A stretch of DNA of 64,000 bases from Ostreococcus lucimarinus (Eukaryota). The DNA lies in NCBI GenBank assembly GCA_000092065.1, contig CP000600.1, one strand, 5' to 3'. Shown here piece after piece: positions 39,855 through 47,764 of this stretch. Every line of letters starts with the position of its first letter. The stretch's first letter is position 1. Below the pieces are notes generated by a model. That model did no database searches, was not told where the DNA came from, and saw only the letters and a list, made by a program, of their open reading frames with translations. The translations under genes and the position numbers were made by a program.

Positions 39855-41840
39855 TTACACCGAAGACGCGGCGCCGAGGAGGTCGTCGCCGTATGCGGCG
39901 AGGTAACGCCGGATGATTTCGTCGTCGCCGTCGTCGTCGTCGTCGTCGCGCTCGAGCGAGACGTCGTATTTGATTCTCGGGAAATAGTCCTCTTCTTCGA
40001 CGTCGCGCGCGACCGCGGCGCGCGGCTCGGCGCGAAGCGCGCCGTCGCCGTCGTCGGCGAGGCGACTCGGCGCTCTGAGACGCGCGATGTCTTCGTCGAC
40101 GAGTCGAAGCGCGTCGTCGTACGCCTCGGCTTGCGCTTCATCCGTCGGTAACTTTACGTATCCCAAAGCTTTCGGGTCGAACGACGGCGCGTCGAGCGCG
40201 CGCGTTCGCGCGTCTCCGTCCTCAGACTCGTCCGAAGCCGTCGCGACTTCGAGTCGCGATCGGCGCACGTCGGCGCTCAAATCTTCCGCCAGACGACGCA
40301 CCGTGGCGCTCACGTCGTCGTCATCCTCGTCGTCGACGTAATTACGACGGCGAATGACTTGATACCGGTCGCCGTCGTCTTCGTCTTCTTCTTCGCCGTC
40401 GACGAACGACGCCGATACGATGGCTTCCCGAAGCGAATCGATTTCGCGTTGAAGAAATTCCATTTGAGCCGCGCGTTGCCGGCGTTCTTCCTCGTACTCC
40501 TCGTCGTATTCCTCCTCGTAGTCGTCGTACTCGCCGTCGTCTTCTTCCGTCGCGTCTTCTTCCTCGCCGTCGCCGTCTTCGACGAAGCCGTAGTGCTCGG
40601 CGCCGTACTCTTGCGGGCGAACGCGGTAGTAATTCGGCACCACGCCTTCGTCTATCGGCGTCGCCCGCGCCTCGGCTGGCTCACCCGGGCGAACGATTAG
40701 ATCCACACCGTACGGAACGAACGGCGAGCTCGAATGCGAAGCGCTGACTTCGTAAAACGCGGGTGCGCTCGATCCGGCGAAAAGACGCGCGCACAAAAAC
40801 TTCCCACGCTGCGTGTGCTTGTTCAGGTGTTCCGAGCACGCGAAGCGCACGCACGCCGCCCACGTCGCGGCGTCGTCCACGCGTTTTGATCCTTGAACCC
40901 AAACGCCCGTGATGGGCTCGTCTTCCGTCCCGCGCGCGGCTTCGCTCAGGAAGACGACGCGCCGCGCGCGATCCAACGTCACGAAACCCGTCGTCGCGCC
41001 GCTTTCGTCGCCGCTCGCCGCGCGCGCTTGCGCGGCGACGGATGCGTCGTTTGTGGCCAATCGAGGCGGATGAATCGGCGTCAACTCAAAGCTACAAGAC
41101 GGCACGTTGATGGCGAACGCCACGCGCAGCGCCGCGGCGTCGCCGTCCCCCCCGCCGTCTCGCGAATCGTCCACCAAAGTCGCCACAGCGCGCGTCGGGC
41201 AATACATCGCCGGACACAGAGGCGCGTCGCTCTCGCACGCGGCGTAGAACGCCTCCCGCAGCGTCTCCTCTCGCGCCCACGCCGTCTCGTGCAGCGCGGA
41301 CGCCGCCGAACGCTCGTCCCCCGAAAAATCCCTCGGCAGCGTCTCCATCGCGATCTCCACGCACCCGTCCTCCAACGCGCTCGAGTAGTGCTCGCAATCG
41401 TCCTCCGTCGTCACCGACACGCGCACCGTCTCGCTCGAGTCTCGATTATCCCCGATCAGCGCCGCGCGTCCCGCTTCGTCGTTCCCTCGCGTCCGCGCGA
41501 CTTTCCCTCGCGTCCCTTTCGCCGCGCTGACCCCATCGCGCGCCGTCGACGCGTCCGCGATCGCCCGCGCCAGCGCGCGCGTCGCGTCACCGTCGAGCCG
41601 AACCGTCGTCGGCGCGCTCGTCCCGCTCGACGCCGTCGTCGCCTCGCCCGCGGCGCTCGCGTCCCACAGGATCCCGCGCGTCGACGGGAAGTTCGCGTCG
41701 CTCGCGCGCGTTCGCGTCTCGATTCGCGCGTCGACGCGCGTCTCGACGCGCGCGTCGTCGACGCGACGCGCTTCGCGTCGTTCGAAGTACGCGCTGTCGC
41801 GCGAGACGCGCGACATGACGCGCGTCGGTGTGCGGCGCAT
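39855..41840 (-). CDS. Acidic protein with possible STIL/Ana2-like N-terminal domain (centriole duplication factor), about 661 aa
   Basis: Segment PITGVWVQGSKRVDDAATWAACVRFACSEHLNK...FLCARLFAGSSAPAFYEV resembles the human STIL N-domain stretch [30 protein letters not shown]...FYEC. This alignment is recalled from memory. The C-terminal half is D/E-rich with coiled-coil character. First ATG at 41840; the tracked start is GTG. Confidence 0.35.
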   Translation of the reverse strand: MRRTPTRVMSRVSRDSAYFERREARRVDDARVETRVDARIETRTRASDANFPSTRGILWDASAAGEATTASSGTSAPTTVRLDGDATRALARAIADASTARDGVSAAKGTRGKVARTRGNDEAGRAALIGDNRDSSETVRVSVTTEDDCEHYSSALEDGCVEIAMETLPRDFSGDERSAASALHETAWAREETLREAFYAACESDAPLCPAMYCPTRAVATLVDDSRDGGGDGDAAALRVAFAINVPSCSFELTPIHPPRLATNDASVAAQARAASGDESGATTGFVTLDRARRVVFLSEAARGTEDEPITGVWVQGSKRVDDAATWAACVRFACSEHLNKHTQRGKFLCARLFAGSSAPAFYEVSASHSSSPFVPYGVDLIVRPGEPAEARATPIDEGVVPNYYRVRPQEYGAEHYGFVEDGDGEEEDATEEDDGEYDDYEEEYDEEYEEERRQRAAQMEFLQREIDSLREAIVSASFVDGEEEDEDDGDRYQVIRRRNYVDDEDDDDVSATVRRLAEDLSADVRRSRLEVATASDESEDGDARTRALDAPSFDPKALGYVKLPTDEAQAEAYDDALRLVDEDIARLRAPSRLADDGDGALRAEPRAAVARDVEEEDYFPRIKYDVSLERDDDDDDGDDEIIRRYLAAYGDDLLGAASSV

Positions 41841-41893
41841 CGGGACGCGCCGCACACCGACGCGCGGCGCGCTCGCGTCGCGACGCGCGCCCG
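41841..41893. promoter_or_regulatory. 53-bp head-to-head interval between the STIL-like (-) and LSMT-like (+) start codons
   Basis: Same architecture as the RabGGTA/NSI interval. The inner ATGs are the first ATGs of each ORF. Confidence 0.4.
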
Positions 41894-46700: not shown

Positions 46701-47764
46701 TCATCGCCCGGTATCGCATGAGATTGCTCACGCGAACCCTCTACGGGTGGCACGAAAACGCTCAAAAGTCGAAGTCAAACCGAAAGAAGGTGCAAAAAGT
46801 GATATCGCGCTCGCAAAATCGTCTCGCGGCATCGGCATTTTACAAATGGAGAGAGTTAGTCACTTCCAAGTCGCGTCAATTACTGCTGCTACGACGTTTC
46901 GTCGATCGAATGCGCAACGGCGTAAAGGCGTCGGCGTTTGACAAGTGGTTCGAAGTGACGCAAAACGAAAAGCGTAAACGTGCCGTCATCACAAAAGTTT
47001 TCTCGCGTATCAAGAACGAGCAGATGGCGCACGCGTTCGGGCGCTGGCGCGAGTTCGCCGCGGAGTCGTACGACGCCAAGGTGAACCTACGCAAAATCGT
47101 CAGCCGCATGCTGCGCTTGCGTCTTTCACAAAGTTTCACGCTATGGAACGAAAATGTGGTTGAATTGCGACGCCAGCGCGCCGTTCTTGCTCGATTCGTC
47201 GGTCGCATGCGCAATCGATGCGTCACGGCCTGCTTTTACGCCTGGGTCGAGGCTCTCGAAGAGCGAAAACGCGCTTCGAAACAAGACGCGTACAGAGACA
47301 GACTCGTGGCAAACGTCCTGTGGCGCACGAACCGCTCGACGCTTCGGGCGGCGATGCACCAGTGGCGAATGGTGGTTGAGGAACGCGAGACGCATCGCGA
47401 GCTGATCCGACGCAATTTGCGTTCCAAACGCGTGGCACTGAACTTCTTCATGACTTGGTATTGGGACGCCTTTGATGGCGATATTCAATCCACCGTCGCG
47501 GACATGTTTGGTCAAACTCGTTCGTATATGAACGAAGCGTTCGATGATTTCGATGAAGGTTCCGCACAGGCCGCGCTCAACTTTGTGGGTTATTACGACG
47601 ACGACAAAGATATCGTGATCGACTCTCCGCCGCCGCCAACCTGGGAAGGCGACGCGGCTGGTATCCACGACGACGACGACGACGACGATGACGACGACAG
47701 ACTCTTCCACACGCCCGGGAAAGTCGGCCGTCGAGCCGACGATCAGGACGACTTTACGTATTAG
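43766..47764 (+). CDS. Sfi1-like centrin-binding repeat protein (centriole/basal-body), about 1332 aa
   Basis: The C-terminal 700 aa hold 15 or more spaced repeats of the form A-x-x-F-x-x-W-x-x, about 33 aa apart (AAAFAAWAEV, KAFAGWADKA, RTLYGWHENA, SAFYKWRELV, SAFDKWFEVT, HAFGRWREFA, QSFTLWNENV, ACFYAWVEAL, AAMHQWRMVV, ...). This is the Sfi1 repeat signature. The N-terminus is acidic, and a poly-D run sits near the C-terminus. The tracked start is TTG; first ATG at 43766. Confidence 0.5.
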   Translation: MFARANRGRETVDVDAGAPTSTRDVGARDDARDGADDDADDDDVDDASTMGALNARTLATLARTGSRPTSPSARERRAGTATESRASETLEIPTREVDYGRGGAGRTGLKPGDVVALVTPEEGYPYACVSEIDEARDGERRYRYAIDAGGKGGNAALRERAETQLEVLQHNGFVGFRSAFARDRLLQATRHARNRLGFVSANFGTWEEWILDEEEKRKLNDGAWTRCEVTLKHRRLDAYRLRVTMVRVGRIVGAGVGDGEQEEYKLGTSVSRQSTPGGTTRALSAVDRFRLTREGEAAEGGRGAPSRPHAMHAMGGALMKEWAAALEKEVAARRVIEQELHDLHESDDKLREWALTELNRLRQFAQSEVDSLAAEVEERNKKMVDLKQQRRALELRAKMLESLDEERLNSIVASFRGMQRGTLLRRAFSHWRRESGSMGVMHNKSIENAFARYQAKDYKKNLLKRALEVWRREASKEKRARRVYSSVLNRYCHVAFRTWASEMRSSKLRREIAERIAPSRRIGVHLNNALTIGFQMRGALKQHQFRRCVVAHAQKITGVRVDLVEAAFDCGEEMETAATYALSDSLSDPLGSINLAREAVLRHVSGDDVASGAVVHAFDQGIAVASRMIQVRQSYIWMNADTVEEAAALTVAYDLGESSDNASSQNRAMARGKLIVDVSKLPPRISRLILGAFYRGNFVRDYADSRMSNIDEKDAFCAGLEAGLCQYKRREFTSQARSPEELRLVATAFDGGIAYACLSSTSNSYTKVQMVLDSVEDENQRSVSWMRETLMTTVEVGAGNVASTNTEFLLHKILYPLRTDMMRATLHAWRKKHRESKEDELTVTRFQRRVNRRLVKEALFSWRNSASLNKKRFMILRRVGLRIKNASMAKYFDTWSANVDKLSADRVRLTRFKTRLTHRLLAAAFAAWAEVSSKRDDRLEKMANVLNKRMRRFELSKAFAGWADKAFTAISNREKANKFIARYRMRLLTRTLYGWHENAQKSKSNRKKVQKVISRSQNRLAASAFYKWRELVTSKSRQLLLLRRFVDRMRNGVKASAFDKWFEVTQNEKRKRAVITKVFSRIKNEQMAHAFGRWREFAAESYDAKVNLRKIVSRMLRLRLSQSFTLWNENVVELRRQRAVLARFVGRMRNRCVTACFYAWVEALEERKRASKQDAYRDRLVANVLWRTNRSTLRAAMHQWRMVVEERETHRELIRRNLRSKRVALNFFMTWYWDAFDGDIQSTVADMFGQTRSYMNEAFDDFDEGSAQAALNFVGYYDDDKDIVIDSPPPPTWEGDAAGIHDDDDDDDDDDRLFHTPGKVGRRADDQDDFTY

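What the first reader, a model, noticed from the sequence alone, without database searches (positions are those of the whole stretch)
39855..47764. Two centriole/basal-body-type proteins (STIL-like and Sfi1-like) within 8 kb, plus axonemal dynein on the same chromosome arm end
The 1332-aa protein has 15 or more AxxFxxW repeats at about 33-aa spacing, the Sfi1 centrin-binding repeat signature. The acidic 661-aa protein upstream has a segment resembling the STIL N-domain (PxxGxWxxG...WAxCxRF...FYE), a family of centriole duplication factors.

Both would be expected only in an organism building basal bodies, consistent with the axonemal dynein. Their proximity is probably coincidental, but it gives a compact set of flagellar/centriolar markers.

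The STIL call is a memory-based alignment and needs verification.
Basis: inference. Interest (0 to 1): 0.5.

Follow-up and report, generated by a model that had tools for sequence, protein, structure and literature searches.

The report
Centriole gene relics in aflagellate alga
This is the telomeric end of a chromosome of Ostreococcus lucimarinus, a tiny marine alga with no known flagella or centrioles. It still keeps intact genes for a STIL-type centriole-duplication factor, the centrin-binding protein Sfi1 and one axonemal dynein; the last two were already published and the STIL-type gene appears undescribed.

Summary
Both family calls hold. The 661-aa acidic protein passes Pfam STIL_N (46.2 bits, cut-off 27). 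Its profile hits the Trichoplax STIL N-terminal domain crystal structure (E 6e-16), and its AlphaFold model superposes on that whole domain (Foldseek E 1e-20, TM about 0.7). It also has a central helix and a C-terminal motif resembling a condensed STAN motif. It lacks the PRxxPxP CPAP-binding motif.

The 1332-aa protein passes Pfam Sfi1. It carries 16 W-centred centrin-binding-type repeats, 11 in strict 33/34-aa register. Only 5 fit the literal AxxFxxW.

The 4499-aa ORF next to the telomere is the ortholog of the Chlamydomonas inner-arm I1/f 1-beta dynein heavy chain.

Four window proteins are exact matches to O. lucimarinus CCE9901 RefSeq proteins, and this genus is described as lacking basal bodies, IFT and cilia. 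Its I1 dynein, SAS-6 and Sfi1 are published oddities.

The order STIL(-), Rubisco methyltransferase(+), Sfi1(+) recurs in O. tauri and in a Micromonas-type contig. The proximity is therefore inherited synteny, not a demonstrated functional cluster.

The modest novelty is a STIL-family member in green algae, including an acentriolar one.

The parts
1..165 (.). Telomere repeat (CCCTAAA)n, marking the chromosome end
   Evidence: Read directly from the sequence.
738..14237 (-). Axonemal inner-arm I1/f 1-beta dynein heavy chain (DNAH2/DHC10 type). The uninterrupted ORF is 4499 codons; the first ATG is at codon 97.
   Evidence: Best PDB match is 8glv_Co, 'Dynein-1-beta heavy chain, flagellar inner arm I1 complex', at 4561 bits; DNAH2 follows at about 3400 bits. 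The full Pfam dynein domain set is present. The AAA1 P-loop GPAGTGKT and Walker B CLDEF are intact.
39855..41840 (-). STIL-family gene, 661 aa from the first ATG. The conserved Met is residue 9, so a 653-aa product starting at 41816 is more likely.
   Evidence: M9 invariant. Metagenome contigs aa.
40641..41693 (-). STIL N-terminal domain, aa about 50-400, predicted to match the two-subdomain fold of the solved STIL NTD.
   Evidence: Pfam STIL_N covers aa 234-370. The homolog profile hits 5oi9 at E 5.7e-16. The AF2 model has pLDDT mostly 62-88 over aa about 120-390 and lower before that. Foldseek gives 5oi9/5oid at E 1e-20, TM 0.68-0.71 over about 376 columns, with Atg7 NTD next.
40407..40508 (-). 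Central predicted helix or coiled coil, aa 445-478 (ERRQRAAQMEFLQREIDSLREAI)
   Evidence: AF2 helix 445-478, conserved in homologs. Pfam CC_STIL does not hit it.
39876..39989 (-). C-terminal STAN-like motif, aa 618-655: DYFPRIKYDVSLERDDDDDDGDDEIIRRYLAAYGDDLL
   Evidence: detailed in the report.
41894..43483 (+). Intervening unrelated gene: chloroplast Rubisco large-subunit lysine N-methyltransferase, 529 aa, divergent from the STIL gene
   Evidence: Exact match to XP_001422460.1. Pfam Rubis-subs-bind in the metagenome contigs.
43766..47764 (+). Sfi1 gene, 1332 aa
   Evidence: Pfam Sfi1. It is 60% identical to O. tauri 'Sfi1 spindle body' XP_003082815.2. Sfi1 of O. lucimarinus is described in PMC3871271.
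44987..45289 (+). First block of three Sfi1 centrin-binding-type repeats (W431, W470, W499). This is the region Pfam Sfi1 matched best.
46181..47485 (+). Main Sfi1 repeat array: 13 repeats, with W829 to W1160 at 33/34-aa spacing, then W1200 and W1231

Best explanation
The window is the first 64 kb of a chromosome of Ostreococcus lucimarinus CCE9901. This green alga secondarily lost flagella and visible centrioles but retains a subset of the ancestral centriole and flagellum gene set under selection. Three such genes lie here.

(1) A STIL/Ana2/SAS-5-family protein. It has a complete STIL N-terminal domain, an acidic linker, a central oligomerising helix and a condensed STAN-like C-terminus. By analogy with animal STIL, I infer that it binds the SAS-6 reported for this genus and nucleates or regulates a SAS-6 assembly at the spindle pole or MTOC. 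The acidic run in the STAN-like motif sits where animals have PLK4-phosphorylated serines, so binding might not need PLK4.

(2) Sfi1, whose roughly 16 W-centred repeats each would bind one centrin. I infer a centrin-decorated filament of the kind that duplicates yeast spindle pole bodies and links algal basal bodies.

(3) The I1/f inner-arm dynein beta heavy chain, with intact ATPase motifs.

Shown here: the identities, domain architectures, intactness, conservation and organism. Inferred: the binding partners and the cellular site. The STIL-Sfi1 proximity is synteny inherited from the common ancestor of Ostreococcus and Micromonas, not an operon-like unit.
For: Organism:
- Exact matches to XP_001422455.1, XP_001422460.1, XP_001422465.1 and XP_001422466.1.
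- A plant-type telomere opens the window.

STIL family:
- Pfam STIL_N above the curated cut-off.
- Profile against 5oi9 at E 5.7e-16.
- Foldseek against 5oi9/5oid at E 1e-20, TM about 0.7 over the whole domain, with Atg7 NTD second, as reported for the STIL NTD.
- A conserved central helix.
- An HMM of the C-terminal motif finds PxIxY...KYL at the C-termini of other STIL_N proteins above every one of 2920 decoys.
- The motif sits in the last 90 aa of 22 of 77 non-animal STIL_N proteins, against 0.175 expected.
- The unselected profile against animal STAN scores 20.9, P 5.7e-4, with 0 of 200 column-shuffled nulls reaching it.
- Orthologs occur in O. tauri at the syntenic site (43% identity, STIL_N 35.8 bits), in Micromonas-type contigs and in the flagellate Haematococcus lacustris.

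Sfi1: Pfam hit, repeats and periodicity; 60% identity to the O. tauri Sfi1; PMC3871271.

Dynein; PMC2239267.

Partner: SAS-6 is reported in O. tauri (PMC3697468).

Selection: ORFs of 661, 1332 and 4499 codons are intact and conserved across several Ostreococcus lineages.
Against: - No PRxxPxP CPAP-binding motif and no KEN box in any Mamiellales ortholog.
- Pfam CC_STIL does not hit.
- Animal STAN HMMs do not score the Ostreococcus C-terminus above shuffled decoys when applied directly. The higher hhalign probability (85%) comes from a regex-selected set and is partly circular.
- SAS-6 is documented here only from the literature, and only for O. tauri.
- No structure that could use these proteins has been seen in Ostreococcus.
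- Population-level pN/pS was uninformative, with only 1-3 synonymous differences.
Confidence: 0.72

Rival explanations
1. First reader's reading, or its weaker form. The genes mark an organism that does build basal bodies. That is, Ostreococcus has an unobserved life stage, such as gametes, with a reduced centriole-like or axoneme-like structure that uses STIL, SAS-6, Sfi1/centrin and I1 dynein.
For: - All three genes are intact with catalytic or binding motifs preserved.
- Ostreococcus sits between ciliated and non-ciliated species in ciliary-gene phylogenetic profiles, with 30 and 34 ancestral ciliary genes (PMC5850483).
Against: - Ostreococcus is reported to lack cytoplasmic dynein 1 and 2, outer-arm dyneins and single-headed inner-arm dyneins.
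- It is also reported to lack basal bodies, IFT and cilia.
- Whole-cell cryotomography across division stages saw one or two microtubules and no MTOC.
- An axoneme cannot be built by known routes without IFT.
Confidence: 0.12
2. The STIL_N protein shares only the N-terminal protein-interaction domain with STIL. It works in a process unrelated to SAS-6 or centrioles, the C-terminal resemblance to STAN is convergent or by chance, and its neighbourhood with Sfi1 is meaningless.
For: - PRxxPxP, KEN and CC_STIL are absent.
- Direct animal-STAN HMM scores are non-significant.
- Only 16-19% identity to the Trichoplax NTD in the structural alignment.
- The related Atg7-NTD fold shows that this fold serves other pathways.
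Against: - The architecture of NTD, disordered linker, helix and C-terminal motif follows the same order as in STIL.
- The C-terminal motif is strongly enriched at the C-termini of non-animal STIL_N proteins.
- It aligns to both ends of animal STAN above column-shuffled nulls.
- The family is also present in flagellate green algae.
Confidence: 0.13
3. The genes are non-functional relics drifting towards loss.
For: - GC3 is lower in the dynein (0.59) and Sfi1 (0.66) than in neighbours (0.69-0.83), compatible with weak expression-linked codon bias.
- pN/pS is near 1 in tiny within-population samples.
Against: - A 13.5-kb ORF without a stop, with intact P-loops.
- Full-length orthologs at 43-64% identity in several Ostreococcus lineages, with conserved motifs and variable linkers.
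- The pN/pS counts rest on 1-3 synonymous changes and carry no weight.
Confidence: 0.03

Closest known systems
[quoted passage not shown]
   Same: - A complete N-terminal domain with the same fold, including the FPxxRxxLWD start and the G-x-W-x-x-G ... W-A-x-C-x-R-F core.
- A disordered linker, a central helix and a C-terminal motif matching the start (FP[RK]I.Y) and end ([KR][KR]Y..[KR]YG) of STAN.
   Different: - Half the length of vertebrate STIL.
- No PRxxPxP CPAP-binding motif, no KEN box and no CC_STIL profile hit.
- STAN is condensed to about 40 residues, with an Asp/Glu run where animals have Ser-rich PLK4 target sites.
- The host has no visible centriole.
Sfi1 (yeast Sfi1p, human SFI1; O. 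tauri XP_003082815.2; O. lucimarinus Sfi1 of Grecu et al. 2013, PMC3871271)
   Same: - Pfam Sfi1.
- Tandem repeats with the L8xxxF4xxW1 centrin-binding triad at about 33-aa spacing.
- 60% identity to the O. tauri protein.
   Different: - The array is split by a helical insert of about 300 aa carrying 'AFDxG' motifs.
- It is preceded by a beta-rich domain of about 140 aa (beta-trefoil-like at low confidence), shared with Micromonas.
- I count 16 clear repeats where the paper counts 28 on a 1315-aa model with looser criteria.
Chlamydomonas inner-arm dynein I1/f 1-beta heavy chain (DHC10) / human DNAH2
   Same: Full-length match with the complete domain set and intact AAA1-AAA3 P-loops. This is the same protein family that Wickstead and Gull reported in O. 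lucimarinus.
   Different: It is encoded in an organism without an axoneme, about 600 bp from a telomere, and at 51% GC against 58-71% for the neighbouring genes checked.

Membership tests
STIL/Ana2/SAS-5 | STIL N-terminal domain (Pfam PF15253; two MPN-like subdomains as in PDB 5OI9) | tested here: met
   - Pfam 46.2 bits against a cut-off of 27.
- Homolog profile against 5oi9 at E 5.7e-16.
- AF2 model against 5oi9/5oid at Foldseek E 1e-20, TM 0.68-0.71 over about 376 columns.
STIL/Ana2/SAS-5 | Central coiled coil (oligomerisation and PLK4 binding; Pfam CC_STIL) | tested here: inconclusive
   A conserved helix is predicted at aa 445-478 in the right position. CC_STIL gives no hit here or in other algal members, whereas it hits the animal control P0242.
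STIL/Ana2/SAS-5 | C-terminal STAN motif (SAS-6 binding) | tested here: inconclusive
   For:
- The Mamiellales C-terminus HMM finds PxIxY..KYL at the C-termini of other STIL_N proteins above all 2920 decoys.
- Positional enrichment of 22/77 against 0.175 expected.
- hhalign of the unselected profile against animal STAN scores 20.9, P 5.7e-4, with 0 of 200 nulls reaching it.

Against:
- Animal STAN HMMs score the Ostreococcus protein no better than decoys.
STIL/Ana2/SAS-5 | PRxxPxP motif (CR2) binding CPAP/SAS-4 | tested here: not met
   No PR..P.P in the window protein or in 8 Mamiellales-type orthologs. It is present in the animal controls P0242 and P0364. Its universality outside vertebrate-type STIL was not checked here.
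STIL/Ana2/SAS-5 | Binds SAS-6 and is required for cartwheel or centriole assembly | not testable with these tools
   Only indirect: SAS-6 is reported in O. tauri (PMC3697468).
Sfi1 | Pfam Sfi1 (PF08457) above the curated cut-off | tested here: met
   33.5 bits against a cut-off of 22, E 2.3e-8. The O. tauri ortholog scores 26.6 bits.
Sfi1 | Tandem centrin-binding repeats with a hydrophobic triad ending in W, about 33-aa period | tested here: met
   16 repeats, 11 of them in 33/34-aa register. Lag-33 autocorrelation is 0.189 against a shuffle maximum of 0.133. This matches the L8xxxF4xxW1 triad described for algal Sfi1.
Sfi1 | Centrin partner in the same genome; direct centrin binding | not tested
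   The literature reports a centrin sequence for O. lucimarinus (PMC3871271). Binding of these repeats was not measured there or here.
Axonemal inner-arm I1/f dynein beta heavy chain (IAD-1beta, DNAH2) | Closest to IAD-1beta rather than other dynein heavy-chain classes; complete motor with intact P-loops | tested here: met
   - 8glv_Co at 4561 bits, DNAH2 at about 3400, and other classes at 2900 or below.
- 17 Pfam dynein and AAA domains.
- GPAGTGKT and CLDEF present.

No phylogenetic tree was built.

The most novel reading that the evidence does not exclude
STIL is not an animal-lineage addition but part of the ancestral SAS-6 module. It survives in green algae in a compact form of NTD, helix and a roughly 40-residue acidic STAN that could bind SAS-6 constitutively without PLK4. 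Ostreococcus keeps STIL, SAS-6, Sfi1/centrin and I1 dynein because it still assembles a minimal SAS-6-based structure that has never been seen. That structure would form either at the poles of its tiny spindle or in a cryptic sexual stage.
Probability: 0.2. Interest if true: 0.7.

Novelty: new member of a known kind. Interest (0 to 1): 0.4.

Why it matters
Ostreococcus is the textbook exception to the rule that centriole genes vanish with the centriole.

A STIL-family protein, with its N-terminal domain and a STAN-like tail, stays conserved there and in flagellate green algae. That would extend the SAS-6/STIL partnership well beyond animals. It would also give a minimal, genetically tractable cell in which to ask what these proteins do without a centriole.

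For the genome scan itself the lesson is practical. These 'flagellar markers' do not diagnose a flagellate.

The Sfi1 and I1-dynein parts are already in the literature and add nothing new.

Tried and rejected
- Exact look-up of the 1332-aa protein found nothing, because the window differs by 5 residues from the metagenome version.
- A second and third word-indexed homolog search added no named distant relatives.
- Aligning 91 representatives at once failed. I used the stored FASTA instead.
- Animal STAN HMMs, whole and as two blocks, against the algal proteins gave the right places but scores within the decoy range.
- hhalign on regex-selected motifs gave 85% probability, which I discount as partly circular.
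- Within-population pN/pS had too few differences.
- The Sfi1 protein against PDB sequences gave no hit.
- Foldseek of the Sfi1 N-terminal and middle part gave only weak beta-trefoil matches, and nothing for the helical insert.
- The AFDB library was unavailable.
- Hodges 2010 and Carvalho-Santos 2010 are not held. That STIL/Ana2/SAS-5 was considered animal-restricted therefore rests on my memory.
- Literature searches combining STIL with Ostreococcus or Micromonas returned nothing.
- I considered IQ-like or PPR-like repeats for the W-array and rejected them: Pfam reports only Sfi1 at E up to 1.

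
Full report
**What is in the sequence**

The two ORFs named in the finding exist as described. One is 39855..41855 on the minus strand, 661 aa from the first ATG at 41840. The other is 43766..47764 on the plus strand, 1332 aa. Between them lies an unrelated plus-strand gene at 41894..43483.

The window opens with about 165 bp of (CCCTAAA)n, so it is a chromosome end. A single uninterrupted ORF of 4499 codons occupies 738..14237 on the minus strand.

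**Organism**

Seven window ORFs were looked up by exact sequence. Four are identical to RefSeq proteins of Ostreococcus lucimarinus CCE9901, all on a 549,133-bp record:
- XP_001422455.1, RuvB-like
- XP_001422460.1, chloroplast lysine N-methyltransferase
- XP_001422465.1
- XP_001422466.1

The Sfi1-like protein is 60% identical to O. tauri 'Sfi1 spindle body' XP_003082815.2. It is only 26% identical to the Micromonas pusilla CCMP1545 protein.

This changes the biology. Ostreococcus is described as lacking basal bodies, IFT and cilia (PMC6727741). [quoted passage not shown] Whole-cell cryotomography of O. tauri found one or two microtubules and no obvious MTOC (PMC1939878).

**The dynein**

Against all PDB chains, the best match by a wide margin is the Chlamydomonas 'Dynein-1-beta heavy chain, flagellar inner arm I1 complex' (8glv_Co, 4561 bits). 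DNAH2 follows at about 3400 bits.

All dynein domains are present. The AAA1 P-loop GPAGTGKT and Walker B motif are intact.

This is exactly the oddity published in 2007. O. lucimarinus and O. tauri encode IAD-1alpha, IAD-1beta and IC138 but no other dynein class. The 'axonemal dynein' call is therefore right and already known, and it does not indicate flagella.

**Sfi1**

Pfam Sfi1 is the only family hit (33.5 bits, cut-off 22). The literal AxxFxxW motif occurs 5 times.

The centrin-binding triad [hydrophobic]xxx[F/L/M]xxW gives 15 repeat hits, plus a non-repeat hit at W206 that I exclude. W1061 fits the register but fails the triad at position 8, bringing the count to 16:
- three with W at 431, 470 and 499
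- eleven at 33/34-aa spacing from W829 to W1160
- two more at W1200 and W1231

Lag-33 autocorrelation is 0.189, against a maximum of 0.133 in 2000 shuffles.

Grecu et al. 2013 already described Sfi1 of O. lucimarinus (1315-aa model, 28 motifs by looser criteria). They also described the algal triad L8xxxF4xxW1 and gave a centrin sequence for this species. This part of the finding is correct and already known.

**The STIL-like protein**

This is the part that needed verification, and it holds.
- Pfam STIL_N scores 46.2 bits against a cut-off of 27, over aa 234-370.
- A profile of 12 homologs hits the crystal-structure sequence of the Trichoplax STIL N-terminal domain (5oi9) at E 5.7e-16.
- An AlphaFold2 model is reasonably confident over most of the domain, with pLDDT mostly 62-88 over aa about 120-390 and lower before that.
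- The model's best structural matches are 5oi9/5oid at Foldseek E 1e-20, TM 0.68-0.71 over about 376 columns, that is the whole two-subdomain NTD.
- Atg7 NTD comes next, which is the same relationship the structure paper reported for the STIL NTD (PMC5928214).

Downstream of the NTD lie an acidic linker and a conserved predicted helix at aa 445-478. At the extreme C-terminus is the conserved motif DYFPRIKYDVSLERDDDDDDGDDEIIRRYLAAYGDDLL.

**Is the C-terminal motif a STAN motif?**

STIL, Ana2 and SAS-5 are grouped by a central coiled coil and the STAN domain. PLK4 phosphorylates STAN to allow SAS-6 binding (PMC5095913; PMC4113102).

An exhaustive profile search found 468 representatives at E up to 1e-3. 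One is a clear animal STIL, P0242 (STIL_N 452 bits plus CC_STIL). Its STAN region reads DYFPHINYTSL...FEANAIAMKYL...ATRKYLEKYGLL.

Evidence for homology:
- An HMM built only from the Ostreococcus-type C-termini finds PxIxY-(acidic)-KYL at the C-termini of other STIL_N proteins. Scores reach 13.2 bits, against a best of 4.2 among 2920 shuffled decoys.
- The condensed motif lies in the last 90 residues of 22 of 77 non-animal STIL_N proteins. Shuffles predict 0.175, and only 4 of 577 internal windows carry it.
- A profile-profile comparison of the unselected Mamiellales C-terminus with a 40-sequence animal STAN alignment pairs RRYLAAYG with RKYMKRYG. It scores 20.9 at P 5.7e-4, and none of 200 column-shuffled nulls reaches it.
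- In the same comparison, the FP[RK]I.Y...KYL part aligns to STAN block 1 at P 0.005.

Evidence against:
- Animal STAN HMMs applied directly place their best alignments on these two spots, but with scores inside the decoy range.
- PRxxPxP and KEN are absent.

I therefore file the protein as a STIL-family member on the strength of the NTD. I treat the STAN and coiled-coil features as likely but not proven.

**Relatives and synteny**

- O. tauri has the ortholog (43% identity; STIL_N 35.8 bits) at the syntenic position on its chromosome-14 record. The order there is the same: STIL-like(-), methyltransferase(+), Sfi1(+).
- A Micromonas pusilla-type contig shows the same three genes in the same order and orientation.
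- On that contig the flanking Brix, MSP and PPTA genes are rearranged to the other side.
- Haematococcus lacustris, a flagellate chlorophyte, has a 1500-aa member ending in ...ESDSLLMRKYGLR.

The 'absence in flagellated relatives' refutation test therefore fails, because orthologs are present. The proximity predates the Ostreococcus/Micromonas split, but nothing indicates co-regulation.

**How it most likely works**

Shown: identities, architectures, intactness, conservation and host.

Inferred:
- Sfi1 binds one centrin per repeat and forms a filament at the microtubule-organising site.
- The STIL-like protein oligomerises through its helix and uses its C-terminal motif to engage SAS-6. SAS-6 is reported in O. 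tauri (PMC3697468).
- The Asp/Glu run sits where animal STAN is Ser-rich. This suggests, speculatively, a constitutively 'phosphomimetic' interface.

That PLK4 is absent outside the animal/fungal lineage is from my memory of Carvalho-Santos 2010 and could not be checked here.

**Novelty and verdict**

Two of the three elements are already published, and the organism is the known exception discussed in reviews (PMC3144413).

I found no paper in the library linking STIL to Ostreococcus or Micromonas. Databases do carry an automatic PF15253 tag on these proteins.

I rate the finding as a new member of a known kind, with moderate interest. The repeat count is approximately correct under a relaxed motif. 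The organismal inference is not supported.

Noticed in passing
window 1-165 and 738-14237: The chromosome starts with (CCCTAAA)n. The 13.5-kb dynein gene ends only about 570 bp from the telomere repeats.
   Followed up: partly
window 738-14237 and 43766-47764: The dynein (GC 0.51, GC3 0.59) and Sfi1 (GC 0.57, GC3 0.66) are markedly less GC-rich at third positions than nine other genes of the window (GC3 0.69-0.83). The STIL-like gene is not (GC3 0.79). This could reflect weak expression-linked codon bias; the cause was not tested.
   Followed up: partly
window 44105-44512 (Sfi1 aa about 114-249): The Sfi1 protein has a conserved beta-rich N-terminal domain, shared with the Micromonas ortholog. 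AF2 pLDDT is 66-81. The best Foldseek matches are beta-trefoils (SDF2-like/MIR, ricin-B lectins, fascin) at weak E-values of about 1e-2. I do not recall such a domain in yeast or human Sfi1.
   Followed up: partly
window 45383-46030 (Sfi1 aa about 540-755): A helical insert of about 220-300 aa splits the Sfi1 repeat array. It carries about six 'AFDxG'-type motifs (AAFDCGEE, HAFDQGIA, VAYDLGES, GAFYRGNF, DAFCAGLE, TAFDGGIA). It is conserved in O. tauri and confidently modelled (pLDDT 72-87), with no PDB fold match and no Pfam hit.
   Followed up: partly
window 41816-41894: The STIL-like and Rubisco-methyltransferase genes are divergent, with only about 53-77 bp between their start codons. Met9 of the 661-aa model is invariant in homologs, so the 653-aa product called in metagenome contigs is probably the real one.
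   Followed up: partly
window 50852-51138: A 99-bp tandem repeat, 2.9 copies at 96% identity, lies just upstream of the mechanosensitive-channel gene. It is read through as three 33-aa repeats (MYTSLRAVRIDRSV...) in the longest ORF 49149..51092. The metagenome gene calls start downstream of it.
   Followed up: no
P0224, P0228, P0243, P0237, P0239, P0347 and others (representative proteins): Many non-animal STIL_N proteins of unknown taxa end in PxIxY-(Ser/Asp/Glu-rich)-[IL]x[KQ]KYL. This suggests that a short C-terminal STAN core is the common form and that the 90-residue animal STAN is an expansion.
   Followed up: partly
window 39919-39948 and 47667-47698: Both the STIL-like and Sfi1 genes carry a run of about ten GAC (Asp) codons near their 3' ends, seen by TRF as (TCG)10 and (ACG)10.7.
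   Followed up: no
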